From NCBI RefSeq assembly GCF_963921235.1, contig NC_086108.1:9982001-10046000 (forward strand): 64,000 nucleotides of DNA. Reading direction: 5' to 3'. A program made the translations under genes and the position numbers. Positions within the stretch are counted from its first letter, which is position 1; each line of letters opens with the position of its first letter. The notes beneath the pieces are model-generated. The model was given only the letters and a program-made list of their open reading frames with translations, made no database searches and was not told where the DNA came from. Shown one piece after another: positions 830-50,529 of this stretch. Source of the stretch: Mobula hypostoma (lineage: Eukaryota).

Positions 830-1790
830 ACCGACACACAATGCAGATCAGACAGCTTCTATGAAAATGAATAAACAGTTGGTGTTTCAGGCCGAGACCC
901 TTCATCAAGAGAGGACACAGTTTTAAGGTGCTTGGAAGTAGGTACAGAGGAGATGTCAAGGGTAAGTTTTTACGCAGAGAGTGGTGAGTGCAAGGAATGG
1001 GCTGCTGGCAACGGTGGTAGAGGCGGATACAATAGGGTCTTTTAAGAGACAGATACATGGTGCTTAGCAAAATAGAGGGTTAGGTAATTTCTAAAGGACA
1101 TGTTCGGCACAGCTTTGTGGACAGAAGGGCCTGTATTGTGCTGTAGGTTTTCTATGTTTCTATCTTTCTATCAAGACGAAGAAGGAACAGGGAAGATGCC
1201 AGAATAAAAAAGTGGGGGGAGGGGAGGGAGGCTAGCTAGAAGGTGATAGGTGAAGCCAGGTGGGTGGGAGAGGTCAAGAGCTGGAGAGGAAGGAATCTGA
1301 TAGGAGAGGAGAGTGGACCACAGGAGAAAGGGGAAGAGGAGGAGACCCAAGGGGAAGTAATGGGCAGGTGAGAAGAGGTAAAAGGCCAGAGTGGGGAATA
1401 GAAAAAGAGGGGAGGGGGAGGGAACATTTTTTTACCAGAAGGAGAAATCAATATTCGTGCCATCAGGTTCGAGGCTACCCTGACGGAATATAAGTTGTTG
1501 CTCCTCCACCCTGAGGGTGGCCTCATCCTGGCACAAGAGGAAACCATGGTCCGACGTGTCAGAATGGGAATGGGGATCAGAATTAAAGTGTTAGGCATCT
1601 GGGAAGATTCACTTGCGGCAGATGGAGCAGAGGTGCTCGACGAAGCGATTCCCCTGATTTACGACGGGTTTCACCAACGTAGAGGAGGCTGCCTTGGGAA
1701 CACCGGACCAACCCCAGCAGATTTGCAGGTGAAGTTTTGCCTCAACTGGATGGACATTCTGGGGCCAGGAATGGAAGTGAGGGAGGAGGT
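830..1790 (-). mobile_element. Penelope-like element 3' part (GIY-YIG C-terminus + pseudo-LTR), interrupted by CR1
   Basis: Minus strand 1440-1790 gives decayed ...LCQDEATLRVEEQQLIFRQGSLEPDG..., typical of the PLE endonuclease C-terminus; pyrimidine-rich 3' region and hammerhead-like motif near 877-910. Confidence 0.8.
911..1169 (+). mobile_element. CR1 LINE 3' end
   Basis: RGHSFKVLGSRYRGDV-like end, near-identical to the 3' end of the CR1 at 48780-49055; (TTTCTAT)n tail; flanked by ATCAAGA at 904-910 and 1170-1176. Confidence 0.9.
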
Positions 1791-2189
1791 CTGTCTATCG
1801 GAAGCAACTGTGTACAAAATCATTGTGCAACAGGTCATTTTACAAACTCGATAATTTGATCAGAATCACGGGGTGACTATCTCCAAGGGGCCCACAATCT
1901 TGCCACAGGGTCTGAGGCTTGCGTACCTCATTGATCCAGAGAGCTATACTGGCTGGAGTCAGGGGCTTGTGCTAGGTCATCCATGCCAAACAGGTCAAAG
2001 GGTAGAAGCCAGACTAAGAATGAAGCATACATAAAATAGTTGAATTTAATAAGTAGTGCAAAAACAGAATTAAAAAAGTAGTGAGGTACATGATTATATA
2101 GCAAGAAAAATAAATAAGTAAAGAAATCACAGTAAGTAATAAAATAATCAATTAAAAATAGTGCAAAACGGAGATAATATTATAAGTAG

Positions 2190-3519: not shown

Positions 3520-3885
3520 TTTCCCTGTCCTTCTTCTCTTCTTTTATTCCCCACTCTGGCCTCTTACCTCTTCTTACCTGCCAATCACCTCCCCTGATGC
3601 CCCTCCTCCTTCACTTTCTCCTGTGGCCCACTCTCCTCTCCTATCAGATTCCTTCTTCTCCAGCCCTTCACCTTTCCCACCCACCCGCCTTCACCTATCT
3701 CCTTCCCTCCCACCACCGTTTAATTCTGGTGTCCTCCCCCTTCCTTTTCGGTCCTGATGAATGGTCTTGGCCCAAAATGTCAACTGTTTATTCATTTCTG
3801 TAGACGCTGCCTGACTTGCTAGGTTCCTCCAGCATTTTGTGTGTGTGTGTGTTGGTCTGGAGTTCAAGCATTTGCGGAATCTATG
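3520..3885 (+). mobile_element. Penelope pseudo-LTR / 3' UTR fragment
   Basis: CT-rich tract, then GTCCTGATGAATGGTCTTGGCCCAAAATGTCAACTG and GCTGCCTGACTTGCT...TTCCTCCAGCATTTTGTG, the pLTR signature repeated throughout the window. Confidence 0.8.
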
Positions 3886-8345: not shown

Positions 8346-8524
8346 AGGGTGAGATTCAGAATCAGCTTCATTATCACAGACATATGTCGTGAAGTGCAAT
8401 GTTTGTGGCAGCAGCAGAATGCTACAGATAAAACACACTAAAATCAGAATAAAAATAAAAATAAATAAGAATAAATCATAAAATATAAGTAGCGCAAATA
8501 GAAAGGAAAAACATTGAGATAGTG

Positions 8525-11500
8525 TACACTGTGTACAGCGCTGTGGGATCTACACTGTCCCAGTGACAAGGATCATCTGACTGTACACAGCGCTGTGGGA
8601 TCTACACTGGTACCAATGACAGGGATCAACCCAACTGTGCACAGCGCTGTGGGATCTACACTGGTACCAATGACAGGGATCAACCTAACTGTGCACAGCG
8701 CTGTGGGATCTACACTCTTCCCAGTGACAGGGATCACCTGATTGTGTACAGTGCTGTGGGATCTACACTGGTCTCAGTAACAGGGATCACCCGACTGTGT
8801 ACAGCGCTGTGGGATCTACACCGGTCCCAGTGGCAGGGATCACCCGACTGTGCACAGTGCTGTGGGTTCTACACTGATCCCAATGACATCGATCACACGA
8901 CTGTGTACAGTGCTGTGGGATCTACACTGGTCTCAGTAACAGGGATCATCCGACTGTGTACAGCGCTGTGGGATCTACACTGGTCCCAGTGGCAGGGATC
9001 ACCCGACTGTGCACAGTGCTGTGGGTTCTACACTGATCCCAATGACATCGATCACACGACTGTGTACAGTGCTCTGGGATCTACACTGGTCTCAGTAACA
9101 GGGATCAACCCAACTGTGCACAGCGCTGTGGGATCTACACTGGTACCAATGACAGGGATCAACCCAACTGTGCACAGCGCTGTGGGATCTACACTGATCC
9201 CAGTGACAGGGATCACCTGATTGTGTACAGTGCTGTGGGATCTACACTGGTCTTAGTAACAGGGATCACCCGACTGTGTACAGCACTGTGGGATCTACAC
9301 CGGTCCCAGTGGCAGGGATCACCCGACTGTGCACAGTGCTGTGGGTTCTACACTGATCCCAATGACATCGATCACACGACTGTGTACAGTGCTGTGGGAT
9401 CTACACTGGTCTCAATAACAGGGATCACCCGACTGTGTACAGCGCTGTGGGATCTACACTGGTCCCAGTGGCAGGGATCACCCGACTGTGCACAGTGCTG
9501 TGGGTTCTACACTGATCCCAATGACATCGATCACACGACTGTGTACAGTGCTCTGGGATCTACACTGGTCTCAGTAACAGGGATCACCCGACTGTGTACA
9601 GTGCTGTGGGATCTACACTGGTCACAGTGACAGGGATCAACCCGACTGTGCACAGCGCTGTGGGATCTACACTGGTCCCAGTGGCAGGGATCACCCGACT
9701 GTGCACAGTGCTGTGGGATCTACACTGATCCCAATGACATCGATCACGCGACTGTGTACAGTGCTGTGGGATCTACACTGGTCTCAGTGACAGGGATCAC
9801 CCGACTATGTACAGCGCTGTGGGATCTACACCGGTCCCAGTGGCAGGGATCACCCAACTGTGCACAGCGCTGTGGGATCTGCACTGGTCCCAGTGACAGG
9901 GATCACCCGACTGTACACAGCGCTGTGGGATCTACACTGGTACCAATGACAGGGATCAACCCGACTGTGCACAGCGCTGTGGGATCTACACTGATCCCAG
10001 TGACAAGGATCACCTGACTGTGTACAGTGCTGTGGGATCTACATTGATCCCAGTGACAGGGATCACCAGACCGTACACAGTGCTGTGTGATCTACGCTGG
10101 TCCCAGTGACAGGGATCACCCCGACTGTACACAGTGCTGTGGGATCTACACTGATACCAATGACAGGGATCACCCAACTGTACACAGTACTGTGGGATCT
10201 ACACTAATACCAATGACAGGGATCGCCCAACTGTACACAGTACTGTGGGATCTACGCTGGTCCCAGTGACAGGGATCACCCCGACTGTACACAGCACTGT
10301 GGGATCTACACTGATACTAATGACAGGGATCACCCAACTGTACACAGTACTGTGGGATCTACACTGGTCTCAGTGACAGGGATCACCCGACTGTACACAG
10401 TGCTGTGGGATCTACACTGGTCTCAGTGACAGGGATCACCCAACTGTGTACAGCGCTGTGGGATTTACACTCATTTCTGTGACAGGGATCACCTCGACTG
10501 TGTACAGCGCTGTGTGATCTACGCTGGTCCCAGTGACAGGGATCACCCCAACTGTACACAGTACTGTGGGATCTACACTGGTCTCAGTGACAGGGATCAC
10601 CCAACTGTGTACAGCGCTGTGGGATCTACACTGGTCTCAGTGACAGGGATCACCCAACTGTGTACAGCGCTGTGGAATCTACTCTCATTTCTGTGACAGG
10701 GATCACCTCGACTGTGTACAGCGCTGTGTGATCTACACTGGTCCCAGTGACAGGGATCATCCCGACTGTACACAGTGCTGTGGGATCTACATTGATCCCA
10801 GTGACAGGGATCACCAGACAGTACACAGTGCTGTGGGATCTACACTGATACCAATGACAGGGATCACCCAACTATACACAGTACTGTGGGATCTACACTG
10901 GTCTCAGTGACAGGGATCACCTGACTGTACACAGTACTGTGGGATCTACACTGGTCTCAGTGACAGGGATCACCCCAACTGTACACAGTGCTGTGGGATC
11001 TACACTGATCCCAGTGACACCCCAACTGTACGCAGTGCTGTGGGATCTACATTGATCCCAGTGACAAGGATCACCTGACTGTGTACAGTGCTGTGGGATC
11101 TACATTGATCCCAGTGACAGGGATCACCAGACAGTACACAGCGCTGTGGGATCTACACTGGTCCTAGTGACAGGGATCACCAGACTGTACACAGTGCTGT
11201 GGGATCTACACTGATCCCAATGACAGGGATCACCCAACTGTACACAGTACTGTGGGATCTACACTGGTCTCAGTGACAGGGATCACCCAACTGTGTACAG
11301 TACTGTGGGATCTACACTGATCCCAGTGACAGGGATCACCCAACTGTACACAGCGCTGTGGGATTTACACTCATTTCTGTGACAGTGATCACCTCAACTG
11401 TGTACAGCGCTGTGTGATCTACACTGGTCCCAGTGACAGGGATCACCCTGACTGTGCACAGTGCTGTGGGATCTACACTGATCTCTGTGACAGGGATCAC

Positions 11501-13024: not shown

Positions 13025-13470
13025 TAGGTGGCGGGTGGAGCTATGTCTCTACCAAAGGAGGTGTAAGGTGCTTCTTCCCCTTCACTTGCCTGCAGGAGCC
13101 ATGGGGGCAGGTGCTGGATGGTTGTATGAGCAGCTGGTGCACATCACAAGTCCTGGTTATGCGACCACTGACGCCAGGCAGACTATCTTTGGCGAGTATT
13201 GATAATGGCTGGGGTCACCCGTCTTGTAATGGCACTGCCCAGAAGATGTCAATAGCAAACCTCTTCTGTAGTTGCCAAGAACAATTATTGTTATGGAAAG
13301 AACAGAAAGTCTGCAGATGCTGGGAATCCGAGCATCATACATAAAATGCTGGAGGAACTCAGCAGGCCAGGCAGCATTTATGGAAAAGAGTACAGTCGAC
13401 GTTTCAGGCTGAGACCCTTCATCATGGAAAGACCATGATTGTTCACGTATGGCACAGAACGAATGAACGA
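13025..13470 (+). mobile_element. RTE-derived SINE-like element, interrupted by a Penelope pLTR piece (13302-13423)
   Basis: Homology to 2772-3166; ATGGAAAGA duplicated at 13293-13301 and 13424-13432. Confidence 0.8.
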
Positions 13471-14994: not shown

Positions 14995-15680
14995 GGACAA
15001 ACTGGCAGAACTGGTCCTCACCCTGAACGATTTTTCCTTTGGCTCCTCCCACTTTCTCCAAACTCAAGGGTTAGCCATGGGCACCCGCAAAGGCTGTGCC
15101 TGCCTCTTCGTTGGCAGTCCACATTCAAAGCCTTCACCAGTTATACTCCCGAAATCTTTCTCTGCTACATCGGTGACTGCATTGGTTCTGCTTCATGAAC
15201 CCATGCTGAGCTCGGCAATTTTATCAACTTTGCCCCTAACTTCCAACCTGCCCTTAAATTCACTGACTCCACCTCTGACACCTCCCACCCCTCTATCAAT
15301 CTCTCTGTCTCCATCTCTGCAGACAGCCTGTCAATGACATCATTTATAAACCTGCTGATTCTCATGGTTATCTCAACCATACCTCCTCCCTCCCCGTCTC
15401 CTGTAGAAATGCTATTCCCTTTTCTCAGTTCCCGGGATGTGGCTTTCCATTCCAGGACACCAGAGATGTCCTCCTTCTTTAAAGATAGGGTTTCCCTTCC
15501 TCTGCTATTGATGCTGCCCTCACCCTCATCTCCTCCATTTCTTGTACATCCCATCTTCCTGGCACCTTAACAGTGATCAAGTCCCTCTTGTCCTTACCTA
15601 CCGCCCCCATGAGCCTCTGCATCCAATATTCTCTGTAACTTCTGCCATCTCCCAAAGGACCTTACCTCCAAACAAATTGT
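14995..15680 (+). mobile_element. Penelope-like reverse transcriptase fragment (pseudogene)
   Basis: LAELVLTLNDFSFGSSHFLQTQGLAMGT, FLCYIGDCIG (YIDD relic), DVAFHSRTPEMSSFFKDR, VPLVLTY; frameshifted. Confidence 0.9.
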
Positions 15681-20837: not shown

Positions 20838-21679
20838 CACTCAGTGACCACTTCATTCGGTACCTCCTGTACGCAATAAAGGGGCCACTGTGTACACTCG
20901 TGCTCTACCGCAGCCGTAGCCCAGGGTTCGTTCAGAGATGCTCTTCTGCACACCATTAATGTAATGAGTGGTTATTGGAGTTACTGTCACCTACCTGTCA
21001 GCTAGAACCAGTCTGGCCTCTCTCAATAACAAAGTATTTTTGCCTGCAGAATGGACAGCACGGTAGCATAGTGATCAGCACAACACTTCACAGCACCAGC
21101 AACACGGGTTCGATTCCCGCTGCTGCCTGTAAGGAGTTTGTATGTTCTCCCTGTGACCGCGTGGATTTCCTCCGGGTGCTCCCGTTTCCTCCAACGGTCC
21201 AAAGACCGACCAGTTGGTGGGTTAATCGGTCATTGTAAATTGTCCTGTGGTTAGGCTTGGGTTAAATCGGAGGGTGAGCGGGTGCTGGGCGGGGCAGATC
21301 AAAGAGCCAGAATGGCCTATTCCGTGCTGTAATTCAATAGATAAATTAAAAATTAAAAAATAAACTGCCATACATTTGATGTTTTTTTTTGTTTTTGCAT
21401 CATTCTCTGTAAAGTCTAAAAACTCCTGTGTATGAAAATCCCAGCAGTGCAGCAGTTTCTGAGATACTCAGACCACCCCATCTGGCACCAATAATCATTC
21501 CACAGTCAAAGTCACTTAGAGCACATTTCTTCCCCACTCTGATGTTTGGTCTGAACAACAACTGAACCTCTTGACCATGTCTGCATACTTTTATGCATTG
21601 AGCTGTTGCCACATGATTGGCTGATTAGATATTTAACGAGCAGGTGTACAGGTGTATCGAATAAAGTGGTCACTGAGTA
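20838..21679 (-). mobile_element. Non-autonomous Tc1/mariner element with TIRs and TA TSD
   Basis: TA|CACTCAGTGACCACTTCATTCGGTAC ... GTATCGAATAAAGTGGTCACTGAGTA|TA; minus-strand relic of the Tc1 HTH (GKKCALSDFDCGMIIGARWGGLSISETAALLGFS). Confidence 0.88.
21053..21364 (+). mobile_element. V-SINE (HE1-like), near full length, nested in the Tc1 element
   Basis: GGACAGCACGGTAGCATAGTG...GGGTTCGATTCCCG head, V-domain GCGTGGATTTCCTCCGGGTGCTCCCGTTTCCTCC, A-rich tail. Confidence 0.9.
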
Positions 21680-23237: not shown

Positions 23238-24396
23238 TCAACGCTGAGGGAGGATGGGACTGGAGCAAGGTTTAAGCAATGTGGTTTGTGAACCGTGGAC
23301 AAATCGTAGTTCACAAGATGATGTGTTCTAGTTTCTGGTCTCTTCTTTTCTTTTGCTGCTTTTTTTGGCCGATTTTGAATTGGGGTGGCCTACAGATGAT
23401 GAACATGGAGTTGAACTGAAATATGCTTTTTGATTTTGAGTACTTTATTCTGTGATTTTACTCATTTTTTTGTTGCTGTTTGTGCGAAGGGGTTTTGATG
23501 TTTGATGTTTTTTCTTTGAATGGTTCTCCTTTTATTTGTGGCTGTGGGGAAGATGAATGTACACTGCATACTACTTTGATAATAAATCTACTTTGAATCC
23601 TTTGACTTCAAATGTGTCACATGGTGCTGCGGACCTCCGGCCAGAGGGGGTGCTGTAGGGTTCTAATGAAATATAAAGTCCTCAGCCTGTGCTGGATGGC
23701 CTGACCTAATTACTTTGCTTTGGTCCTCAGAGACCCTTGGAAATCCAGGCAGTATCTCAGTGTCAGTGTAAATCCAAAAGAAATCCCCAGTTTTAATCAT
23801 GTCTCCTGGAGCTGCCTGCCTGGGGAGATTGATTAGTATGTTAATGTACAGTTCACAATGCAAATTCCAGAGGTATATTTTTAGAAGCGAGTGCGTTATT
23901 TTGCAAAACCACAGTGTGATTAGGAATGAAATTTTTGAATGATTTTTTTTCTCTCTGCTTAACTGAACCAATCTTCTGCTGAATGGAGCTATTTATTCTG
24001 GCTCATCTTAGCACTGATAACTTTCCACGAGGTGCTGCATGTACAGTTTGCAGCTAATAACACATTAAATATGCCAAATGCCTCCATCGATCATTATCAA
24101 TAGCACAAAGCCACGAGTACCAGCTGTCCGACGCTCCCGTCTGCCCGAGGATGGACCACAGTTTGGGTGGGAGCTGTGGCAATCTGCTCAAGGTCAGCCA
24201 GCCTCCTAAGAGCAGGAGACACCTATCAATCATCACCAGTCCTGCGTGCTCAGTGCACAAGCATTCCATCCCTGCCCCTTTCGTGGGTTCGGTTCTCACC
24301 AAAGATGCTGCAAAGGCAAAACCTTTGGCGGCCCAGTGATGCCATCAGAACAATCCGCATGAGCGGGGCATTTTGAAGGGCATAGGGGAGCAATCA

Positions 24397-24682
24397 ACAG
24401 ATGCTGGAAATCCAAAGCAACACATACAAGATGCTGGAGTAACTCAGCAGGTCAGGCAGCATCTATGGAAAAGAGTTTCAGGCTAAAACCCTTCTTCAGG
24501 ACTGGGAAGGAAGTCGGGAGATGCCTGAATAAAAAGGTGGGGGAAGGGGAAAGAGGCTAGTTGGAAGGTGAAGCCAGGTGGGTGGGAAAGGTCAGGGGCT
24601 GGAAAAGAAAGAGTCTGATAGGAGAGAAGAGAAGGAGGAGGGGACCAGGGGTTAGTAATGTGCAAGTGAGAAGAAGTAAAGG
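24397..24682 (-). mobile_element. Penelope pseudo-LTR fragment
   Basis: CAGATGCTGGAAATCCAAAGCAACAC...AACTCAGCAGGTCAGGCAGCATC; minus strand CAGTC-CTGAAGA-AGGGTTTTAGCCT-GAAAC. Confidence 0.85.
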
Positions 24683-27352: not shown

Positions 27353-28525
27353 TCAGCTCACACGTCATTCCAATTAACTGAAGAGAGCAGGACTGTGGGG
27401 AGAGAGTGGGAAAGTGGGATTAGTTTGGGGACTGACACAGGCCTATGGAGAGAGGTGGGTGGCAGTGGGATTGGCCTCTTTCATCAGGCAGAGGATATAA
27501 GAGTTTGAAAGCACGTACTACAAGGCTGAAGCAAAGCTTTTCCACACGGTTATAAGAGTAAGTTCCTTTGTACAATATGACCCTTGGCCTCACAATCTGC
27601 CTTGTTATGGTCTTGCACTTTGTCCTCTGTCTGAAATGCATTTTCTCTGTAGTTGTTATAACAGACAAAGCTGATTAGCATTCATTTTGGGTGTCTGGAG
27701 TGTGGGTGGGAAGAAGGAGGTGTTTGAAAAGTGTATGTAATTCATAGGAAGCATTGTAGATACATTGTAACTATAGAATTGTCCTGCTGTTGCCTTTGAT
27801 CTTCAGCATATAAAATACCAATAGTTCAATGATTTAATTTAATATCAGAGAATGTCTGCAGCAATACCTGAAATTCTTATTCTTCACAGACATCCACAAA
27901 ACAGAGAAAAACCCAAAGAATAAGTGATAGAAAATGTTAGAACCCGAAGCCGCCTCCCCCTCCCACACACAAGCAGCAGCAAAGGCATCAACTTCCCCCT
28001 CCCCTCACCCCACTTGCTCCAGTGAAACATTAACTCCCACCCAGCCACCACCCACCATGCAAGCAAAAACTTCCAGAGACCACAATTTCAAGTCCATCAA
28101 AAACCACTGTCCATCCTAACACTTCAACATCTGAGACAGGCACTCTTTCTCACTAGCGAAGGAGAGACCGATATCTCTCACTGTTTAGATGTTACAGTCT
28201 TCTGCGTTACTTCTCAGAGCCCACCCCCCCCCTCAACTCAGGGACCAACAGAATCTCACTCACCATCGAGAGAGAGAGAGACAGAGAGATTGCTCGATTC
28301 ATGGTGTATTGGGTCGAGCAGGCCTCTCCTTACAAGGGTGTCTCAATGTGATGCCCTGTTGCTCACTTTTGTTAACTAAAACACTCTACACCCACTAGCT
28401 TCAGGAGGGAGGAGAAGATGGCACGACGCAGCGCGTGCGGCCGCTCGGAAATGATATCGTATTTGTGAAGTAGGATGCCGTGCACAATCCTGATTTGATG
28501 GAGACAGACGTAAGAAGCACGGAGG

Positions 28526-30699
28526 TATTCCTATTTTAGGTAACATATTTTTTCCTCCCTCTTTGACGGATCGCGCTTTTCAAACCTGGAAGACTAAGGG
28601 TATTTTACGGTTTTTGGATTTATTTTTAGATGGTTCCCTTATGTCTTTTGAACAATTATCTAATAAATATAATTTATCAAGAATACATGTTTTTAGATAT
28701 TTACAAGTTAGAAATTTCCTAAGTACTGTACTTTCTTCCTTTCCAATGCTTCCTCCTACAGATATTTTAGATTCGATAATTAACCTTAATCCATGTCAGA
28801 AAGGTGCATCGGCTATGATTTATAATATTATTATGAAACTTAGGAAAGCTCCATTTGATAAGATTAGGGTAGATTGGGAACAGGAATTGGGGCTTACCAT
28901 CTCTGTGGATGATTGGGGGCAGATTTTACAATTAGTTAATACTTCCTCTATTTGTGCTAAACATTCCCTAATTCAATTTAAAGTGGTTCATAGAGCACAT
29001 ATGTCCAAAGATAAATTAGCGCGTTTTTACTCGCAGTGTTAGCAGTGAGGAGGATGCTAAGAGGATGCAGGGTGACTTGGATAGGTTGGGTGAGTGGGCA
29101 AACTCATGGCAGATGCAATTTAATGTGGATAAATGTGAAGTTATCCACTTTGGTGGCAAAAATAGGAAAACAGATTATTATCTGAATGGTGGCCGATTAG
29201 GAAAAGGGGAGGTGCAACGAGACCTGGGTGTCATTATACACCAGTCATTGAAAGTGGGCATGCAGGTACAGCAGGCGGTGAAAAAGGCGAACGGTATGCT
29301 GGCATTTATAGCGAGAGGATTCGAGTACAGGAGCAGGGAGGTACTACTGCAGTTGTACAAGGCCTTGGTGAGACCACACCTGGAGTATTGTGTGCAGTTT
29401 TGGTCCCCTAATCTGAGGAAAGACATCTTTGCCATAGAGGGAGTACAAAGAAGGTTCACCAGATTGATTCCTGGGATGGCAGGTCTTTCATATGAAGAAA
29501 GACTGGATGAACTGGGCTTGTACTCGTTGGAATTTAGAAGATTGAGGGGGGATCTGATTGAAACGTATAAGATCCTAAAGGGATTGGACAGGCTAGATGC
29601 GGGAAGATTGTTCCCGATGTTGGGGAGGTCTAGAACGAGGGGTCACAGTTTGAGGATAGAGGGGAAGCCTTTTAGGACCGAGATTAGGAAAAACTTCTTC
29701 ACACAGAGAGTGGTGAATCTGTGGAATTCTCTGCCACAGCAAACTGTTGAGGCCAGTTCATTAGCTATGTTTAAAAGGAAGTTAGATATGGCCCTTGTGG
29801 CTACAGGGGTCAGGGGGTATGGAGGGAAGGCTGGGTTCTGAGTTGGATGATCAGCCATGATCATAATAAATGGCGGTGCAGGCTCGAAGGGCCGAATGGC
29901 CTACTCCTGCACCTATTTTCTATGTTTCTATGTTTCTATATTAATCCTTTTTGTGATAGATGTTCGGGGCAGATAGCCTCTTTAACTCATATGTTTTGGT
30001 CTTGTCCTACTTTGGAAACTTTTTGGAGAGATATTTTTAATATTATTTCTAAGGTATTAAATATAGATATCTCTCCTCACCCTATTACTGCTATCTTTGG
30101 ACTTCCTAAAATTTCTAGTAATCTTTCCCCTTCAGCCCGTAGAATGATCGCATTTCTTACTTTAATGGCGAAAAGGTGTATTTTACAACATTGGAAAGAG
30201 CTTAATGCTCCAACTACCTTTTTTTGGTTTTCTCAGACGATTTTATGTTTGAATTTGGAGAAAATTAGAAGCAACCTTTATGATTCTTCATTTAAATTTG
30301 AACAGATTTGGGGACCTTTTATTCGATACTTTCATTTAATGTAATACATACCCTTCTTGTTTTTTTTCACTGTTTTTAATGGAGGTCGGGATTGAGGACG
30401 TGATTTTAAGTTTAACTCTGTTTGGTTTCAAGTTAGCCCATTGCTTTGCTTTGCTTTTAGTTAGTTGCACGGTGGGTTTTTTTTTGGGGTTTTTTTTTTC
30501 TTTTTTTTTCCATTGATATATATATAAAATTTAGTATACTATTATGTTATCTTGGTTTTTTATGTTTAAATTACATTGTTTGTAGTATTTTTTTTGGTAT
30601 TGATACCTTCTGGAATTCTATTATATTTTAACATTGTATTAATGTTTATATGGTTTACCTTTTTGTATACTTATTCAATAAAAAGATTTAAAAAGAAAG
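28526..30699 (+). mobile_element. L1 LINE 3' fragment (ORF2 C-terminal zinc-binding region), interrupted by CR1
   Basis: FQTWKTKGI...FRYLQVRNFL...LIQFKVVHRAH; after removing the CR1 it continues FYSHINPFCDRC...LTHMFWSCP; T-rich 3'UTR, AATAAA and A-rich tail; 13-bp TSD AGAAGCACGGAGG. Confidence 0.93.
29036..29938 (+). mobile_element. CR1 LINE 3' portion with intact 258-aa ORF2 C-terminal frame
   Basis: MQGDLDRLGEWANSWQMQFNVDKC...YKALVRPHLEYCVQFWSP...; (TTTCTATG)n tail. Confidence 0.96.
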
Positions 30700-33435: not shown

Positions 33436-33639
33436 CTACTCACTGAAGGCAATTCAAAGTGGAGAATTTATCTGCTGACCGAGGTGTCTGGTGTGCGGTA
33501 GGAACCCATGTGGTCATGGTGTGTCCTCACACAGATAGCACCAGAGGGCAGGGTCGGATCGGGGTCCCTGGGACAGGGTGTGTGTGAGGCAGCAGCTTCA
33601 TCCAGTGAGCCCCTGTGTAAGAGAAAGCCCCGCAAGAGA

Positions 33640-34535
33640 GTCCAAAGCAGCACAGAGAAAACGCTGGAGGAGCTCAGCAGGTCAGGCAGCATCTACGGAA
33701 ATGAACAAACTTTTGATGTCATGTGCTGAATATTGCTCAAGATACCTGCAGTATCTTACACTTCCTTGCAAGACTGGAAGAGGCAATTCAGCCCACTGAA
33801 TCCATGCTGTCCCTTTTGTCAATAAGAGACACAGAAAGTGCTGGAGGAGCTCAGCAGGTCAGGCAGCATCTGTGGAGAGGAATAAACAGTCGACGTTTCA
33901 GGCTGAGACCCTTCATCGGCACAGGAAAGAAAGGGGGCAGAAGCCGGAATAAGAAGGCGTGGGGAGGGAAGGGGGACAAAGCAATGCACGCAAAATGCTG
34001 GAGGAACTCAGCAGGTCAGGTAGCATCTGTGGAAATTAATCAACAGTCAACGTTTCAGGCCGAGACCTTTCATCAGGATTGGAAAGGAAGGGGGAAGATC
34101 CCAGAATAAAAATGTTGGGGGGGGGGAAGGGAAGGAGGATAGCCAAAAGGAGATAGGTGAAGCCAAGGAGGTGGGAAAGGTCAAGGGCTAGAGAGGAAGG
34201 AACCCAATAGAAGAGGAGAGTGGAGCATAGGAGAATGAGAAGGAGGAGGGGACACCGTAGGAAGTGATAGGCAGGCAAGGAGAGGTAAGAGGCCAGAGTG
34301 GGCAAGCTTGGTGAAACCTAGGTGAGGGGCAAGGTGGGTGGATGAGGAAAGTAAGAAGCTGGAAGGTGGTAGGTAGAAGAGGTGAAGGGCTGAAGAAGAA
34401 GGAATCTGATAGGAGAGGAGAGTGGACCATTAGAAAGGGAGAAAGGGAAGGAGGAGGAGACCCAGGGGGCAGTGATGGGCAGGTGAGGGGAATAGAAGGG
34501 GTGAGAGGGGAACCGGAATGAGGAATGGAAACTAA
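33640..34535 (-). mobile_element. Cluster of three successive Penelope pseudo-LTR fragments
   Basis: GCTGGAGGA(G/A)CTCAGCAGGTCAGG(C/T)AGCATC at ~33663, ~33840 and ~33997; hammerhead-like motifs at 33887-33920 and 34044-34081. Confidence 0.85.
34044..34081 (-). ncRNA. Minimal type I hammerhead ribozyme motif (Penelope pLTR)
   Basis: Minus strand CAATC-CTGATGA-AAGGTCTCGGCCT-GAAACGTT-GACTG: conserved CUGANGA and GAAA boxes, short stem II, palindromic ACGT stem III. Confidence 0.7.
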
Positions 34536-35345: not shown

Positions 35346-35489
35346 AAACTTCTCAGCAGTGGCACCAGCTGACTTCCTGTTCTCCTGGCAGTGCCAGGAG
35401 CATTGACTTCCAATGCTCAGTCTGGTGTGGCCTGGCCTACTTAGTACATCGCCTTCCCACAGGTGGTCAGCAGAGGAAAGTCCCTCCTC

Positions 35490-35965
35490 CTGCCCACAGG
35501 ACAGCTGTTCAGGTGCTGATGAAGGGTTTTGGTCCAAAAATTTAATTGTTTGTTCTTTTCCACGGATGTGCTGCATTCCTCCAGCACTTTGTGTGTGCTA
35601 CTCTGGATTTCCGGCATCTGTAGAATCGCTTGTGTTTCTGTAAAAATCAGGGAAGCTGTTCAGGTTCTGATGAAGGGTCACTGCCCAAAATGTCGACTGT
35701 TTATTCGTCTCCATGGATGCTGCCCGAGCTGCTGAGTTACTCCAGCATTTTGTGTGTGCTGCTCTGGAATTCCAGGATCTGCAGAATCTCTTGTGTTTCT
35801 GTAAAAATGAGATCTGCCCAACAGGGTAGCTGTTCAGGTCCTGAGCAAGGATCTTTGTGTGAAACATCAACTGTTTACTCCTCTCCACGAAGGCTGCTTG
35901 ACCTGTTCAGTTCCTCCAGCGTTTTATGTGTGTTGCTCTGGATTTCCAGCATCTGCAGATCCTCT
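35490..35965 (+). repeat. Tandem triplicate of a pLTR/hammerhead-containing unit (151 and 174 bp spacing)
   Basis: AGCTGTTCAGGT at 35503, 35654 and 35828, each followed by CTGA(T/G)..., TCCAGCA...TGTGTG and GGA.TTCC.GCATCTG. Confidence 0.85.
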
Positions 35966-36484
35966 TCAGTGTAATTGTTGTTTATCTGCCTATTGTCTCA
36001 CAGTGGGCTGATGCCATCAGCACTAAAGGAAGTGTATTTCTTTTAATCTGTCATAATGGTTTATAAATAACCTTAATTACACACAGTTTGATCACATCAC
36101 TGTCTCAGAGTGAGCTTGGGCTTCTACCTTCTCTCCAGGAGCTGTATTACCCTTTAATCTGTCCCTACTCCTTCTCACCTCTAACTTCCAATTAAAAATT
36201 ATAAATCTTCCTTTGTCCTTGTCCCCTTGTCAGCCCCTTGACCCCAGGCGATCAGTCCTGCCCAGACATGATCAGCAGTGTGTACTGGAGCAGGTGCTGT
36301 GGTGGGTCCATGGTGGTGGCGACGGCCTGCGGCGTCCCACACCAGAAAATGTGAGGCAGTGTTGGTCAGTATGGTGTGGAGTGTTTAATGATGAGAAGCC
36401 TGCCACAGTCACTGGAATCAAGAAAGAGACATTCAGAGATGGAGGGATCAGCAAGAACAGACATTACAATAAGACAGGGTAAGG

Positions 36485-37674: not shown

Positions 37675-39193
37675 AATGAATGAATGAATTAATTAATTAA
37701 TTAAACTTATTTCGGTCAGTACAAACATAACAAGAAGCATCATTTTCAATGATGATTTCATAACGATCATTTCATGGGACAAAATTACAACAAAAAGACA
37801 TAGGTATTCCTTAAAACAGACTGAAAGGGTGTAGGATGAAGCTACAGCTTATTACGCCTACCCCTCTTACTTATACAACATATTTGGTGTCAATCATCAC
37901 ATCAAAACAAAAAATTTCATAATCTTTTAACACAAAATTCGGTTTCAAGTATCATTTATTTACATTACTCCCATTCATTTTAAATCATGTATTTTATATT
38001 TGTTCATTAAATTATTTTAAAATATTTTTTAAACTTTTTAAGTGTGGTGCATGTTTTTAAATTCTCACTACAACTGTTCTATAGATTCACCCCTCTGACT
38101 GAAACACAATGATTTTTTACATTTCTTCTTATCCTTTGTTTTTGAAATATACATGTTCCTCTCAGATCATGTTGACTTTCTCTCATCTTAAATAACCTTT
38201 GGATACTTTGTGGTAGCTGTCCATTTTTTACTTCTTACGTAATTTGTATTATTTTAAAATCTACAAAATCTCTGAATTTTAAAGTGTTTAGTTGAATAAA
38301 TAGTGGATTGGTTGGCTCATAATAACTTGCCTTATTTACAATTCGTATGACTTTCTTTTGGAGTAGAAAAATTGAGTTTGTATTTGTTTTGTATGTATTT
38401 CCCCATACCTCTACACAGTAAGTCACGTATGGGACTATAAGTGAACAGTATAATGTATACAAAGATTCCTGATTTAAGGAATCTTGTGCTTTGTACAGTA
38501 TTGCAGTAGATTTTGACATTTTTGCTTTGACAAATTATATATGGTTTCCAGCTTAATTTATTATCTATTACCACTCCTAAAAATTTTGTTTCAGATACCT
38601 TATCAACTTCAACATCATTTATTCTAAGTTTACTATATGAGTTTGGTACACAGTTTCCAAATATTATGAATTTAGTTTTACTTAGATTCAGTGATAATTT
38701 GTTAGTATCAAACCATTTCTTTATAATTTTAAGTTCTTTCTCCACTGTATCCAAAAGTTGTTTCAGATGTTCCCCACTACAAAATATAGTTGTATCATTG
38801 GTACATAATATACAGTTTAATGTCTGTTTAATGTTTATATACAAAATGAACAGCAATGGACCAAGCACTGAACCTTGTGGAACCCTACAAGTTACCCTCA
38901 AAAATTTTGAATTCGAGTTGTTTATATGTACATACTGATACCTGTCTTTCAAATAATTACTTAACCAGTCATGTGCCACCCCTCTAATACCATACCTTTC
39001 TAATTTTGTTAATAATAATTTATTGTCAATGGTGTCAAATGCTTTTTAGATCAAGGAATATTCCCACTGTGTATTCATTTCTTTCTATAGCGTTTGATGT
39101 TTCTTCTGCAAAATCTATTAACATTATTGTAGTGGTTCTGTTTTTTTCTGAAACCATATTGCTGTTCATAGAGTATATTATGTTTTATCATTT
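37675..39193 (-). mobile_element. L2-group LINE (Crack/Daphne-like) RT + 3' end
   Basis: DWLSNYLKDRYQYV...[17 protein letters not shown]...WFDTNKLSLNLSKTKFIIF...KFLGVVIDNKLSWK, LYCSLIVPYVTYCVEVWG; 3' stem-loop GGGGTAGGCG...CCTACACCC, CCGAAATAA and (ATTC)n tail. Confidence 0.88.
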
Positions 39194-42118: not shown

Positions 42119-42317
42119 CTAATTAGAGGGAAAACAAGGGAAAACAACAACATAGTGAAGAATAAAGTGAAATGGCTGGAGGGAACATGCAGACAGGTAG
42201 ACAGTAAGCTGCAAGGTAGATTATGAGGTCCAAAATCCATCTTATTATACAAAGGTAATACACACAATATGTTGGATGAAGTCAGCACCTCAGACAGCAT
42301 CTATGGAGGTGAGTGAA

Positions 42318-42355
42318 CTGTCAACATTTCGGACCAAGGCTCTTCATCAGGACAG
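42318..42355 (-). ncRNA. Minimal hammerhead ribozyme motif (Penelope pLTR)
   Basis: Minus strand CTGTC-CTGATGA-AGAGCCTTGGTCC-GAAATGTT-GACAG; perfect 5-bp stem I. Confidence 0.6.
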
Positions 42356-42839
42356 ATGATGAGACCCTTCATTATGTCATGGTCCAAAATGATGACTGCT
42401 TATTCACCTCCATAGATGTTACATGACCTACTGAGTTCCTCCAGTATTTCAAAGTTCAAAGTTCAAAGTAAATTTTATTATCAACGTACTTATATGTCAC
42501 AATATAAAATCCTGAGATTCATTTCCTTGTGGGCATACTCAGCAAATCTATAGAACAGGATCAATGAAACAACTTATGTACATGTAATTGGTCAGTGAAT
42601 TTTCTGGTAGTTGTGGTATGGTTGCTTCTGTATTTTTCTAGAAACAGCAGGTTTCGCACCATTTGAATCTCGCTGTTTTGTAGGCTGGCTGTTTTCATTG
42701 GAACGTTACTATCCTTTCAGCTGGAGTTGGTTTTCATAGAGGATGACCACAATCTCTTTGTTACTCTGCTCTTCATTGTTCATTCTTTGTTCTTGTTCAG
42801 ATCCAAGTGTCACCAAAGAAAGCTGAACTGAAAGGATTA

Positions 42840-43792: not shown

Positions 43793-44110
43793 AGTTTCCA
43801 GGGTTGCTTGCAAAGCCTGGAGGTTAGGTCACAAACGTTTCATCACCAGTTGAGGTGACATCATTAGTGTGCAATTGAGTGTTGTTTCCACCAAATGCTC
43901 GCATTTACATTGTCTGACTTGTTGTAATTACCAATCAGAACAATGGATTGGACCAAAATAAACAGGAGCACACAGAGGAGCCCACACTCAGTTGCATGTT
44001 GATGATGCGACCTTGATGGTGATGACACATTTACGACCTAGCCTCTAGACTCAGTGAACAACCCCACAACATGCAGCCAACCTGAACTACCAATCTTCTC
44101 TTTCATTGCA
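43793..44110. mobile_element. Inverted pair of second-family Penelope pseudo-LTRs
   Basis: Minus-strand motif CTAATGA-TGTCACC-TCAACT-GGTGAT-GAAACGTT (43830-43872) and a decayed plus-strand copy at ~43998-44100; ATGCTGACCTA at 43782-43792 and 44111-44121. Confidence 0.7.
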
Positions 44111-44164
44111 ATGCTGACCTAGGTCTGGTTCAGGTATCTAATGGCCTGTGTTCTTTGGATATGA

Positions 44165-44808: not shown

Positions 44809-45009
44809 CAGGGGATAGTTTACAACACCACCCCTTCAATCCTGGGACTGGCTGTGGATGCAGAATGTTAGGCAGTTGAGATATCGACATCTCATTGGAA
44901 CATTATATCTGAGGTCAGAATGGACATCACCACTGCCGTTGGCCATTAATGGTGCGAGAAACCGAGAACAACTGGTGTAGTAATTGAAACATTAGACAAA
45001 GGCACAAAG

Positions 45010-45719: not shown

Positions 45720-46070
45720 TTGGCCAGACTTATCCACAAGGATCCATGAACATCAACTGGCTGTAAAGCGGAGTGACCAACTGTGAAGATCAAGAGGGGC
45801 ACAAATTCGACTGGGTATCAGTGAAAGCCATATGACGCAGGCGAACACGCGGCATGTAGGAGAATTCCTAGAGGTGCCATTTTCCATGAGTAATTCTGTA
45901 AACAGACATGTAGACCTCGATCCTATTTATGAGCCAATGCCAGCAAAAGTCCAGGCCTAACGCACAATATTTGCCACACAACCAATCAACGAGGAGACTT
46001 GCTCCCTACATCACAATTGAGTTTCTGTAATAATAATCAATCAGTGATGAAACTTCCTCCTTACATCACA
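45720..46070 (+). mobile_element. Penelope GIY-YIG C-terminal relic; its pLTR resumes at ~49057-49235 after the CR1
   Basis: LSTRIHEHQLAVKR, EGHKFDW, QANTRHVGEFLE, NSVNRHVDLDPIYEP in shifting frames; hammerhead-like motif at 49126-49165. Confidence 0.8.
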
Positions 46071-46077
46071 ATTGAGC

Positions 46078-49056
46078 TTCCAAACTGAAGAGACAGAGGA
46101 AGGGGCAGTTGGCTCACAAATAGAGAAAGCTTGGAGACAATGTGAGAGGGAGGATGGGCAGGTGATAGAGAAGGCACGCGCTCAGACAGATGGTTTGAGA
46201 TGTGTCTATTTTAATGCAAGGAGTATTATGAACAAAGCGGATGAGCTTAGAGCGTGGATCAGTACTTGGAGCTATGATGTTGTCGCCATTACAGAGACTT
46301 GGTGGCTCAGGGGCAGGAATGGTTACTTCGAGTGTCAGGCTTTAGATGTTTCAGAAAGGACAGGGAGAGAGGTAAAAGAGGTGGGGGTGTGACACTGTTG
46401 ATCAGAGATAGTGTCACGGCTGTAGAAAAGGAGGGAGTCATGGAGGGATTGTCTACTGAGTCTCTGTGGGTGGAAGTTAGGAAGAGGAAGGGGTCAATAA
46501 CTGTATTGGGTGTTTTTTATAGACCACCCAATAGTAACAGGGACATCGACGAGCAGATAGGGAGACAGATTCTGGAAAGGTGTAATAATAACAGGGTTGT
46601 TGTGGTGAGAGATTTTAATTTTCCAAATATCAATTGGCATATCCCTAGAGCGAGGGGTTTAGATGGGGTGGAGTTTGTTAGGTGTGTTCAAGAATGTTTC
46701 TTGACACAATATGTAGATTAGCCTACTAGATGGAGAGGCTGGACTTGATCTGGTATTGGGAAATGAACCTGGTCAAGTGTCAGGTCTCTCAGTGGGAGAG
46801 CATTTTGGAGTTAGTGATCACAATTCTAGCTCCTTTACCATAGCATTGAAGAAGGATAGGAACAGACATGTTAGGAAAGTGTTTAATTGGAGTAAGGGGA
46901 AATATCAGGCTAGCGGGCAGGAACATAAGTTGGGAACAGATGTTCTCAGGGAACTGTATGGAAGAAATGTGGCAAATGTTCAGGGGATATTTCCGTGGAG
47001 TTCCAGGTGCATAGGTACGTTCCAAAGAGAGAGGGAAAGGATGGTAGGGTACAGGAACCGTGGTGTACAAAGGCTGTTGTAAATCTAGTCAAGAAGAAAA
47101 GAAGAGCTTACGAAAGGTTCAAAAAACTAGGTAATGATAGAGATCTAGAATATTGTAAGGCTAGCAGGAGGAGCGTAAGAAAGAAATTAGGAGAGCCAGA
47201 AGGGGCCATGAGGAAGCCTTGGTGGACAGGATTAAGGAATACCCCAAGGCATTCTACAATGATGTGAAGAGCAAGAGAATAAGATGTGAGAGAATAGGAC
47301 CAATCAAGTGTGATAGTGGAAAAATGTGTATGGAATCAGAGGAGGTAGCAGGGGTAATTAATGAATACTTTGCTTCAATATTCACTACGGAAAAGTACCT
47401 TGGCGATTGTAGGGATGACTTACAGCGGACTGAAATACTTAAACATGTAGATATTAAGAAAAAGAATGTGCTGGAGCATTTGGAAAGCATCAAGTTGGAT
47501 AAGTCAGCAGGACCAGACGAGATGTACCCGAGGCTACTGTGGGAGGCGAGGGAGGAGATTACTGAGCCTCTGGCGATGATCTTTGAATCATCAATGGGGA
47601 CTGGAGAAGTTTCTCAGAGGATTGGGGGGTTGAGGATGTTGTTCCATTATTCAAGAAAGGGAGTAGAGATAGCCCAGGAAATTATAGACCAGTGAGTCTT
47701 ACTTCAGTGGTTAGTAAGTTGATGAAGAAGATCCTGAGAGGCAGGATTTATGAACGTTTGGAGAGGCATAATATGATTAGGAATAGTCAGCATGGTTTTG
47801 TGAAAGGCAGATCGTGCATTACAAGCCTGGTTGAATTTTTTGAGGATGTGACTAAACACGTTCGTGAAGGTAGAGCAGTAGATGTAGTGTATCTGGATTT
47901 CAGCAAGGCATTTCACAAGTACCCCATGCAAGGCTTATTGAGAAAGTAAGAAGGCATGGGATCCAATTGGACATTGCTTTGTGGATCTGGAACTGGCTTG
48001 CCCACAGAAGGCAAAGAGTGGTTGTAGACAGGTCATATTCTGCATGGAGGTCGGTGACCAGTGGTGTGCCTCAGGGATCTGTTCTGGGACCCCTACTCTT
48101 CGTGAATTTTATAAGTGACCTGGATGGGGAAGTGGATGGATAGGTTAGTAAATTGCTGATGGCACAAAGGTTCGGGGTGTTGTGGATAGTGTGGAGGGCT
48201 GTCAGAGGTTACAGCGGGACATTGATAGGATGCAAAACTGGACTGGGAAGTGGCAGATGGAGTTCAACCCAGATAAGTGTGAGGTGGTTCATTTTGGTAG
48301 GTCAAATATGATGGCAGAATATAGCACTAATGGTAAGACTCTGGGCAGTGTGGAGGATCAGAGGGATCTTGGGGTCCGAGTGCATAGGATACTCAAAGCA
48401 GCTGCACAGGTTGACTCTGTGGTTAAGACAGCATACGGTGCATTGGCCTTCATCAATCGTGGGATTGAGTTTAGGAGCCGAGAGGTAATGTTGCAGCTAT
48501 ATAGGACCCTGGTCAGACCTCACTTGGAGTACTGTGCTCAGTTCTAGTCGCCTCACTACAGGAAGGATGTGGAAACCATAGAAAGGGTGCAGAGGTGATT
48601 TACAAGGATGGTGCCTGGATTGGGGAGCATGCCTTATGAGAATAGGTTGAGTGAACTCAGCCTTTTCTCCGTGGAGCAACGGAGGATGAGAGGTGACCTG
48701 ATAAAGGTCTATAAGATGATGAGAGGTATTGATCGTGTGGATAGTCAGAGGCTTTTTCTCAGGGCTGAAATGGCTAGCATGAGAGGGCACAGTTTTAGAG
48801 TGCTTGGAAGTAGGTACAGAGGAGATGTCAGGGGTAAGTTTTTTTACGCAGAGAATGGTGAGTGTGTGAATGGCTGCCAGCGATGGTGGTGGAGGCGGAT
48901 ATGATAAAGTGTTTTAAGAAACTCCTGGACAGGTACACGGAGCTCAGAAAAATTTAGGGCTATGGGTAACCCTAGGTAATTTCTAAGGTAAGGACATGTT
49001 TGGCACAGCTTTGTGGGCTGAAGGGCCTGTGTTGTGCTGTGGGTTTTCTACGTTTC
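46078..49056 (+). mobile_element. CR1 LINE with nearly complete but disabled ORF2 (APE endonuclease + RT)
   Basis: CVYFNARSIMNK...[70 protein letters not shown]; many frameshifts and stops; TTTCTA tail. Confidence 0.96.
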
Positions 49057-50529
49057 TATAATCAATAAGCTGATTGAAAAGTATATAAAAGCCAAACATT
49101 TGGAGGACACACCACAATTAACAGCGCACTGATGATGTCTCCTCATATGGTGATGTAACGTTTGCTAGTAAATTGCCAAGATCGGAGAACATCTCAACCC
49201 AACCATCAGCCACCTGAGTTACACGTTTTCCAAATGATTTCTAACCCTTTCCTCTCACATAGCCCTTCATTTTTCTTTCCTCCAGGTGTCTAAAATGCTC
49301 TTAAATGTTCCTGAGGTGCCCGGCCATATCACCATCTCCGGCAGTGCATTCCAAGCACTACCCACTCAGTTAAAAAAAAACACTGACTTTGCCCCTGTAC
49401 TTTCCTCCAATCATCATAAAAGTATGCTCATATTACCATTTTTAACCTGGGAAAAAATCTCCAAATGTCCACTCGATCTATGCCTTTTACCATCTTGTAC
49501 ACCTCTATTAAGACCAAAGAATTGATTGCAGACTTTAGGAGGGGTAAGATGAAGGAGCACACACCAGTCCTCATAGAGGGATCAAAAGTCGAAAGAGTGA
49601 GAAATTTCAAGTTCCTGAGCAGGCTACTGACATCTTTCTTGTACAAGTTAATTCACCAGATCAAACTTACCCTCCACTGTCTCATAATATCTCCTTTCTA
49701 ACTTTGAAAATACAGATGGCCTCCTCATAAGTTTGGAGTGATGAGTGACTGGAAGTGTTGGAGGAACTCAGCTCTGTTGGTCTGAAAGAACTACAGTCTA
49801 TAAATCAGTGAACTTGAATGAATCAAGGACAGTGCAAGGAGACAAAACAATTGTCTTTGTTCTTGCCATAAGCTTGAAGGAGATAAAGGTTGCCATTTTG
49901 TGAAGCTGCTCTGCATCCTTCATTTTGTGAACTGAAGTTGCAGACTGAAGTTGGTTAAATTAGTGTTTTAAAGTAGACACAATGATCCACCAGGTAATCT
50001 GATGGATTGAGATGATTTCCAATTAAGAAGTTATTTGTAAGGTGCTCTTTGATATAACGTGAAGGTTTGTGAATTTTGGAGAGGGCTAGCTTGGACTAGA
50101 GCCAATAAGAGGGCATTAAAGTTCAGTCAGATGACCTGCATCCAATAACACTGAAATGCACCATTTGAACTAGCAAAGAATGAATATAAAAGCAGACGCT
50201 TTGAGTGCTCTGGCAGTGATAATGCTCCAGCCACCAGAGACTCACCATCATGGATGTGGAGGACCCCATGGATGTGTGGAGATCAGGGGAATACATGGCC
50301 AGTATCAATTCCTTTTACTGGTTTTATCTATTCTATTCTTTGGAGGGTCAGGAATCCATAGTCGGTATGCACACATGTATTTGGTTGTGTAAATTCAGGC
50401 GTTCTTCTGTTGAGTCACTAAGGGTACTTGTTGGTAATTACAGATTCTCTCTGTGCCTCACTGATCATTATTACTAAGGGGTAGATCCTTGTAATAGCCC
50501 GAAATATCAACATTTCCTTTCGACCCCAC

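What the first reader, a model, noticed from the sequence alone, without database searches (positions are those of the whole stretch)
877..49165. About a dozen minimal hammerhead ribozyme motifs from two Penelope families, with a compensatory stem-I change
Seen: family 1 consensus CAGTC-CTGATGA-AGGGTCTCGGCC(C/T)-GAAACGT(C/T)-GACTG recurs at ~877-910(-), 3751-3787(+), 13393-13424(-), 24473-24505(-), 33887-33920(-), 34044-34081(-), 35511/35662/35836(+) and 42318-42355(-). Family 2 (GCA-CTGATGA-TGTC.CC-loop-GGTGAT-GAAACGTT-TGC) occurs at 43830-43872(-), ~43998(+) and 49126-49165(+). The 42318 copy has stem I CTGTC/GACAG instead of CAGTC/GACTG, a double change that keeps pairing. Known: Penelope pLTRs carry minimal type I hammerheads whose palindromic stem III (here ACGT) implies dimeric cleavage. 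Inference: the most abundant short repeat here is a self-cleaving RNA module, mostly decayed by CpG mutation.
Basis: partly seen in the sequence, partly recalled or inferred. Interest (0 to 1): 0.7.

Follow-up and report, generated by a model that had tools for sequence, protein, structure and literature searches.

The report
Decayed hammerheads in Penelope retrotransposon tails
The repeated motifs are worn copies of the small self-cutting RNA signature (hammerhead ribozyme) that Penelope-like jumping genes are already known to carry; the kind is ordinary, but many short copies in this genome begin right at the motif's first bases, which suggests they were copied from RNA that the ribozyme had not cut.

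Summary
The motifs are real and at the stated places. They are minimal hammerheads in the terminal repeats of two Penelope-like retrotransposon families (family 1 Neptune-type, behind RT plus GIY-YIG; family 2 Poseidon-like), a kind published in 2014 and noted by this scan elsewhere in this genome. No window copy passes a strict descriptor. The genome holds 45,476 exact intact family-1 motifs and 60 of family 2. The 'compensatory' change at 42318 is not evidence: 1 of 93 copies, 0.38 expected by chance; over nine pairs 2 seen, 3.25 expected. Better evidence for selection: old and young subfamilies share 34-35 of 38 motif bases, but only about 60% upstream and 5-6 of 15 just downstream. One extra result: about 17.5% of motif copies lose element homology within 6 nt upstream of the motif, against 1.8% at a control site, and 8 of 20 inspected are 100- or 135-nt insertions whose target-site duplication abuts the first bases of stem I. 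No such pile-up shows at the cut site. Templates were therefore uncut RNA, most likely starting at a transcription start in stem I. Cleavage and expression were not tested.

The parts
819..1793 (-). One 5'-truncated family-1 copy: GIY-YIG remnant (1793-1441), 3' UTR, hammerhead split by a later insert of about 260 nt (1169-911) flanked by a 7-nt duplication, rest of motif at 910-876
3554..3884 (+). Family-1 terminal repeat; motif 3749-3786, G12 lost, stem I broken
13302..13424 (-). Short family-1 insertion that begins inside the core; 11-nt duplication with one mismatch on both sides
15002..15652 (+). Broken Neptune-type RT remnant, no hammerhead attached
24392..24679 (-). Family-1 terminal repeat; motif at 24473-24505 lacks cut site and 3' stem I
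33637..33720 (-). Family-1 tail fragment without the core
33827..33976 (-). Family-1 partial tandem copy; motif 33887-33924, U4 changed to C, stem I broken
33977..34488 (-). Family-1 3' UTR pieces and terminal repeat; motif 34044-34081 keeps the core but only 2 stem I pairs, N17 = U
35513..35970 (+). Three head-to-tail family-1 units (35513-35636, 35664-35797, 35838-35970), each starting at the G of stem I behind a shared local linker; 0 of 3 cores intact
42243..42356 (-). Family-1 copy with CTGTC/GACAG stem I (motif 42318-42355); core kept, stem II 3 of 4 pairs, C15.2 changed to U, N17 = U; sits at an inverted joint
42376..42449 (+). Inverted partner of the 42318 copy, starting in loop II
43832..44122 (.). 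Inverted pair of family-2 terminal repeats (44014-43832 minus, 43968-44122 plus); both cores broken
45937..46090 (+). Family-2 3' fragment ending before the motif
49056..49268 (+). Family-2 terminal repeat with TATA-like box upstream; motif 49126-49165, GAAA changed to GTAA

Best explanation
The sites are neutral, decaying genomic copies of the terminal repeat (pLTR) of two endonuclease-bearing Penelope-like retrotransposon families. The parent elements carry a minimal type I hammerhead about 300 nt behind the GIY-YIG stop codon (shown). Reverse transcription starts about 100 or about 135 nt downstream of the motif's first base (two 3' ends shown; mechanism from the Anolis Poseidon paper), runs back through the motif and usually stops early or folds back, which gives short, tandem and inverted copies (shown). 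The motif is kept by selection on the parent elements, not on the inserted copies (inferred from subfamily comparison). It lacks helix III, so it can cut only as a dimer through ACGU or with help from the element's protein (inferred from published work). The RNAs that were copied were uncut: every long copy crosses the cut site, and short copies pile up at the first bases of stem I, not at the cut site (shown). Most likely that edge is the transcription start, so the hammerhead is the first 38 nt of the element's RNA and cutting would decap it or remove the priming tail, acting as an off-switch (inferred, about 0.55).
For: RT and GIY-YIG end, then the motif, in L064 and most of L061-L090; GIY-YIG remnant attached to the first window copy; family-2 consensus and copies follow a different GIY-YIG end. 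45,476 exact intact family-1 motifs and 60 family-2, reversed-pattern controls 0. Old versus young subfamily: motif 34-35 of 38 identical, upstream 200 nt about 59%, next 15 nt 5-6 of 15, tail about 83%; the free core position N7 is A, U or C in different subfamilies. Family 1 and family 2 differ on both sides of four stem pairs and still pair. Two 3' ends about 35 nt apart match the tail of PMC11167929. 5' edge: 2,642 of 98,107 anchors show three purines where the element has pyrimidines, against 243 of 139,436 at a downstream control with four purines; after background correction 17.5% versus 1.8%. 8 of the first 20 listed have a 9-15 nt duplication next to the start and at a 3' end; mismatched controls reached 9 nt in 1 of 380.
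Against: No covariation inside family 1 or family 2. 83 of the first 100 intact copies have G.U rather than G-C at 10.1-11.1 (my count), and family 2 has U at the cut position and only 3 stem I pairs: both should weaken cutting. Pfam support for the domains is below the curated cut-offs (RVT_1 22-29 bits against 29.6; GIY-YIG 17.1 against 22.6 in 1 of 2 pieces). No 5' terminal repeat joined to a full ORF was seen: both upstream stretches fetched were truncated. The 5'-edge test has one control site, which was downstream and used four purines instead of three; about 6 of the 20 inspected copies were fold-back joints, not simple starts. Family 2 shows no such peak in 48 mostly query-selected hits. 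The start site itself is inferred from a short YYAGTYY match.
Confidence: 0.88

Rival explanations
1. The pile-up of 5' ends at stem I is made at the cDNA step, not by a transcription start: once the enzyme has copied the 5' strand of stem I, the new DNA folds on its own mirrored hairpin and leaves the template; or a nuclease trims the RNA back to the base of stem I.
For: The motif folds as a stable monomer hairpin, -11.0 kcal/mol, stem I pair probabilities 0.55-0.98. Fold-back joints are common at and around the motif (about 6 of 20; 74 of 100 listed by eye), many joined through the stem I letters.
Against: The simple, duplication-flanked copies start sharply at the A or G of YAGTCC, which fits an initiator; a promoter in the pLTR is shown for Drosophila Penelope (PMC2377424, passages).
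Confidence: 0.3
2. The window copies are host-used or still active ribozymes, or the triplet at 35513-35970 is a retrozyme that spreads as a ribozyme-cut circle.
For: Three head-to-tail units each begin at the motif; tandem hammerhead arrays derived from pLTRs are described in vertebrates (bioRxiv 10.64898/2026.07.22.740005, parts 1-3).
Against: 0 of 3 cores intact; units only 75-80% alike; the linker is matched only by the window's own units among 44 hits; 0 window copies pass the descriptor.
Confidence: 0.04
3. The motif is conserved as a promoter, splice acceptor or protein-binding fold and only looks like a hammerhead; it does not cut in vivo.
For: Stem I begins with YAG behind a long pyrimidine tract, as the intron end does in D. 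virilis Penelope (PMC4209133, part 2). No within-family covariation. The monomer fold pairs the core with the cut-site strand. No reads ended at the cut site in Anolis (PMC11167929, part 2).
Against: All invariant core letters and both stems are kept in two unrelated families with different stem sequences; the Anolis motif does cut with protein, and core mutants abolish it (PMC11167929, part 2). Duplications abut stem I with no upstream exon, against a spliced origin of the short copies.
Confidence: 0.15

Closest known systems
Minimal hammerheads (min-HHR) in pLTRs of metazoan Penelope-like elements (Cervera and De la Pena 2014, PMC4209133; parts 1-2 of 4 read)
   Same: CUGANGA and GAAA core, one unpaired base before helix II, short helix I, no helix III but a palindrome, place in the terminal repeat, mostly single dispersed copies; reported for Xena, Poseidon and Neptune elements of fishes.
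   Different: Family-1 helix II has 4 pairs, not the 7-8 of the Schistosoma families; most young copies have G.U at 10.1-11.1; 45,476 exact copies of one family against about 4,000 (coelacanth) and 9,000 (Xenopus) by their descriptor. Supplementary alignments were not seen and may list related fish motifs.
Poseidon of Anolis carolinensis (Frangieh et al. 2024, PMC11167929; parts 1-2 of 4 read)
   Same: Two RT start sites 30-40 nt apart giving the tail; uncut RNA as the main template; no ends at the cut site.
   Different: There the hammerhead overlaps the ORF start and the evidence is in vitro; here it is genomic, for a Neptune-type family, and adds a peak of 5' ends at stem I that the read parts do not report.
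Neptune clade of Penelope-like elements (as defined in Craig et al. 2021, PMC8557442; passages read)
   Same: [quoted passage not shown]
   Different: No tree against reference elements was built; clear 9-15 nt duplications are seen here, whereas that paper notes microsatellite bias hiding them in related clades.
Non-LTR retrozymes (Li, Clavereau, Pollet 2026, bioRxiv 10.64898/2026.07.22.740005; parts 1-3 of 5 read)
   Same: Tandem pLTR-derived units with a type I hammerhead, like the 35513-35970 triplet.
   Different: The triplet has no intact core and no dispersed family; the 100- and 135-nt copies are single, duplication-flanked insertions.

Membership tests
Metazoan PLE minimal hammerhead | Core CUGANGA ... 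GAAA ... NUH | tested here: met
   45,476 exact family-1 and 60 family-2 matches; in the window only 2 of 9 scored family-1 copies and 0 of 3 family-2 copies keep it
Metazoan PLE minimal hammerhead | Short helix I and a helix II behind one unpaired base | tested here: met
   Family 1: 5 + 4 pairs, unpaired A; family 2: 3 + 6 pairs with one mismatch, unpaired U
Metazoan PLE minimal hammerhead | Palindrome at 15.1-16.1 in place of helix III | tested here: met
   ACGU in both families
Metazoan PLE minimal hammerhead | G10.1-C11.1 pair | tested here: inconclusive
   G-C 26, G.U 54 of 92 family-1 copies; 17 of the first 100 intact copies G-C (my count); family 2 12 G-C, 20 G.U of 40. Part is CpG decay, part a subfamily state
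Metazoan PLE minimal hammerhead | Lies in the terminal repeat of a Penelope-like element | tested here: met
   Behind RT plus GIY-YIG in L061-L090 loci and window 819-1793; a 5' repeat before a full ORF was not seen
Metazoan PLE minimal hammerhead | Covariation of stems | tested here: inconclusive
   None within families (2 seen, 3.25 expected); four pairs differ on both sides between the two families; motif far better kept than flanks between subfamilies
Metazoan PLE minimal hammerhead | Self-cleavage as a dimer or with protein help | not testable with these tools
   Needs a bench assay
Neptune clade (family 1) | [quoted passage not shown] | tested here: met
   Read directly in the L064 and L066 frames; Pfam hits weak
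Neptune clade (family 1) | RT tree placement with reference Neptune elements | not tested
   No reference set was fetched
Penelope/Poseidon clade (family 2) | RT and GIY-YIG of the Poseidon type, no Cys linker | not tested
   Only broken GIY-YIG ends were read; the Poseidon label is recalled resemblance
Non-LTR retrozyme (triplet 35513-35970) | [quoted passage not shown] | tested here: not met
   0 of 3 cores intact; linker not found elsewhere among 44 hits

The most novel reading that the evidence does not exclude
In this Neptune-type family the hammerhead is the very first 38 nt of the element's RNA, with the initiator inside stem I. Thousands of 100- and 135-nt, duplication-flanked mini-insertions (roughly 7,000; 8 of 20 gives 19-64% of about 17,000) are direct copies from start site to priming tail. 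They are a genomic record that only uncut RNA transposes, and that the ribozyme works as an off-switch, not as a maker of RNA ends. Each such insertion could also seed a dimer-cutting motif in host introns.
Probability: 0.5. Interest if true: 0.55.

Novelty: new member of a known kind. Interest (0 to 1): 0.3.

Why it matters
The kind is known, and the window copies are debris. What the ribozyme does for Penelope-like elements is still called unclear (PMC8557442, passages); the standing idea is that it cuts the element's RNA out of longer precursors (PMC4209133). A genome with over 45,000 intact copies lets insertion ends be counted: they gather at the motif's 5' edge and not at the cut site, which agrees with the in vitro Anolis result that uncut RNA is the template. 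That makes the question testable by 5' end mapping and by assays on intact young copies.

Tried and rejected
Rfam: no hammerhead among 8 hits to E=10, as expected for motifs without helix III. The 42318 swap as covariation: rejected; a direct genome-wide count of that pair was not made. Core-versus-tail divergence in old copies (6.4%, stems 10.3%, tail 9.6%): not used, since the core is A-rich and copies were partly query-selected. A spliced host or element exon in front of the short copies: rejected for the 8 duplication-flanked cases. Pile-up at the cut site: 580 matches, about 3,550 after background correction, without a matched denominator and for the young subfamily only; 74 of 100 listed are inverted or deleted element joints by eye. 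Duplication search in 15 old copies starting at the motif edge: clear in few (L073, window 13302-13424), mostly lost in decay. In the local sample 19 of 133 pieces start at -4 to +2 and none at -50 to -5, but at least two are artefacts (L016, young subfamily; window 911, split copy) and some are fold-backs. RNA: no RNA holder listed; laying contigs of 4 of 24 runs showed cover along the element and no GT..AG joint among the 15 shown (426 not shown), which says nothing on expression or ends. PDB sequence search of the RT frame: 0 hits. Energy of the intermolecular helix III could not be scored in my script. Two stretches fetched to find a 5' terminal repeat were truncated copies. Literature searches for a cartilaginous-fish or 5'-edge report listed none, but subscription papers, Repbase and supplements were not seen. 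Lunse et al. 2017 on dimeric cleavage is recalled only.
Full report
Setting. The window is G000:C50:9982001-10046000 of a 3.48-Gb eukaryote assembly in 200 contigs, 45% G+C, CpG observed/expected 0.35. Its long frames are retrotransposon remnants.

Observation. All 13 sites hold the motif. Fuzzy scans gave 9 family-1 and 3 family-2 sites against 0 and 1 hits in 5 shuffles each. Profiles built from 30 genome hits per family find 18 family-1 pieces at E<0.05 and 5 family-2 pieces in the window. Scored one by one, 2 of 9 family-1 copies keep the core: 34044-34081 (2 contiguous stem I pairs, U at position 17) and 42318-42355 (5 stem I pairs, 3 of 4 stem II pairs, C15.2 to U, U at 17). The tenth, 24473-24505, has lost its cut site. 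None of 3 family-2 copies keeps the core. A strict descriptor found 25 motifs in 345 kb of held DNA, none in the window, and 0 in 10 random controls. CpG sites changed in 193 of 510 cells, others in 157 of 1789.

What carries them. [quoted passage not shown] The Cys linker marks Neptune and Nematis elements (PMC8557442, passages). In the window, 819-1793 is one such copy with a GIY-YIG remnant, its hammerhead split by a later insert of about 260 nt with a 7-nt duplication; 15002-15652 is an RT remnant. Family 2 follows a different GIY-YIG end and a CCAAT- and TATA-like stretch; 'Poseidon-like' is recalled resemblance. Partial tandems (33637-34488), inverted pairs (42243-42449, 43832-44122) and two 3' ends about 35 nt apart are the usual Penelope-like anatomy (PMC8557442, PMC3846280, passages). 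An exact 34-letter intact pattern matches 45,476 times and a family-2 pattern 60 times, reversed controls 0. Twelve young copies are 93% alike over UTR, motif and tail, and two are 97.9% alike over 285 coding bases: family 1 was active recently, family 2 is old.

The compensatory change. Among 93 aligned family-1 copies (85-93 by column filter; 30 loci were picked by similarity to a window copy and 30 by RT similarity), the A-U pair of stem I is T-A once, with 5 single changes to T and 7 to A; 0.38 expected, P about 0.31. Over nine pairs, 2 pairing double changes were seen and 3.25 expected. The best other genome matches to that copy are 83-89% (39 hits), so no close subfamily shows, and its 5' strand sits at an inverted joint. 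Inserted copies decay neutrally, so covariation is not expected among them. Selection shows at the level of parent elements: old consensus against three young copies gives 34-35 of 38 in the motif, about 59% over 200 nt upstream, 5-6 of 15 just downstream, about 83% in the tail. The position that differs among subfamilies is the free N7 (A, U, C), and the other two subfamily changes leave G.U pairs. Families 1 and 2 differ on both sides at stem pairs I.1, I.2, II.2 and II.3 and pair in both.

Where copies begin. In held DNA 19 of 133 family-1 pieces start within -4 to +2 of stem I, none at -50 to -5, 15 at +8 to +59; at least two of the 19 are artefacts. Genome-wide, 2,642 of 98,107 motif anchors have purines at three upstream places where both subfamilies have pyrimidines; a downstream control gave 243 of 139,436 with four purines (my control was stricter by one place). 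Dividing by background frequencies from held DNA (0.154, 0.096) gives 17.5% against 1.8%, 9.7-fold. Of the 100 listed, 55 match the element for 0 or 1 base upstream of the G (my count). I fetched the first 20: 8 are simple insertions with a 9-15 nt duplication 0-1 nt (one 3 nt) before the G and at +93 to +98 or +132 to +136; mismatched pairs reached 9 nt in 1 of 380; about 6 are fold-back joints. At the cut site the same kind of pattern gave 580, of which 74 of 100 listed are element-to-element joints by eye; there is no matched denominator.

How it most likely works. Shown: motif place, two 3' ends, truncation and fold-back, excess of 5' ends at stem I, templates uncut across the cut site. 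From papers: internal priming at two sites, protein-assisted cutting, uncut RNA as main template, no reads ending at the cut site (PMC11167929, parts 1-2); no monomer activity and low dimer activity of a min-HHR (PMC4209133, parts 1-2); a promoter within the pLTR (PMC2377424, passages). Inferred: YYAGTYY across stem I is an initiator, so the hammerhead opens the transcript. The monomer model pairs the core with the cut-site strand (-11.0 against -7.0 kcal/mol for the open form), an off state. Cutting would remove the cap from the 5' copy or the priming tail from the 3' copy, so it would switch the RNA off. The rival is cDNA fold-back or nuclease trimming at stem I; my data do not separate these, and no full-length 5' end was seen.

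Known or new. The class is published, and this scan has noted the same family in other windows of this genome. The high copy number was noted too. I found no report of the 5'-edge pile-up in five searches or in the earlier notes shown, but closed journals, Repbase, the supplements of PMC4209133 (not opened) and of the 2026 preprint (closed; it includes one cartilaginous fish) may bear on this.

Verdict. Observation mostly right, headline covariation claim wrong, kind known: new member of a known kind, interest 0.3. The start-site reading has about even odds and would deserve 0.55.

Noticed in passing
window 35470-35970 (+): Three family-1 units each preceded by the same local 16-30 nt linker; units are no closer to each other (75-80%) than to the consensus (80-86%) but share a few changes, so the array formed soon after insertion.
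   Followed up: partly
window 911-1169 (-): A LINE-tail-like insert landed inside a hammerhead core with a 7-nt duplication, splitting one copy in two.
   Followed up: partly
family 1, all copies; for example window 34082-34110 (-): Stem I starts with YAG behind a long pyrimidine tract, a good splice-acceptor look-alike; D. virilis Penelope has its intron end at the same place. With about 98,000 anchors, sense copies in introns could act as cryptic acceptors.
   Followed up: partly
family 2; window 49056-49268 and L032-L060: CCAAT- and TATA-like boxes lie about 60 and 40 nt upstream of the motif and a GTAA(A/G)T donor-like word follows stem I; several loci hold two copies 500-900 nt apart.
   Followed up: no
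genome listing: Many fold-back insertions join through the stem I letters at the cut site or through loop II.
   Followed up: partly
L066:2720-2770 and L051:2420-2465: A third family-1 variant with different stem I and stem II letters and U at the cut position.
   Followed up: no
window 1-736, 8523-11417, 25569-25987, 59363-64000: Tandem arrays with units of 46, 53, 50 and 45-49 nt; no hammerhead found in them by the scans.
   Followed up: no
window 50790-52283 (+): Nearly open non-LTR retrotransposon 3' part with weak RNase H hits, one stop between two frames.
   Followed up: partly
window 29020-29841, 46278-48547, 59900-60900, 38332-39045, 28494-30344, 62708-63118: CR1/L2-type and L1-type LINE remnants and a hAT-like transposase piece (labels recalled; RT and endonuclease Pfam hits).
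   Followed up: no
window 21062-21300 (+): tRNA-like head (Rfam tRNA, 21.4 bits, below cut-off) on a repeated sequence, probably a SINE.
   Followed up: no
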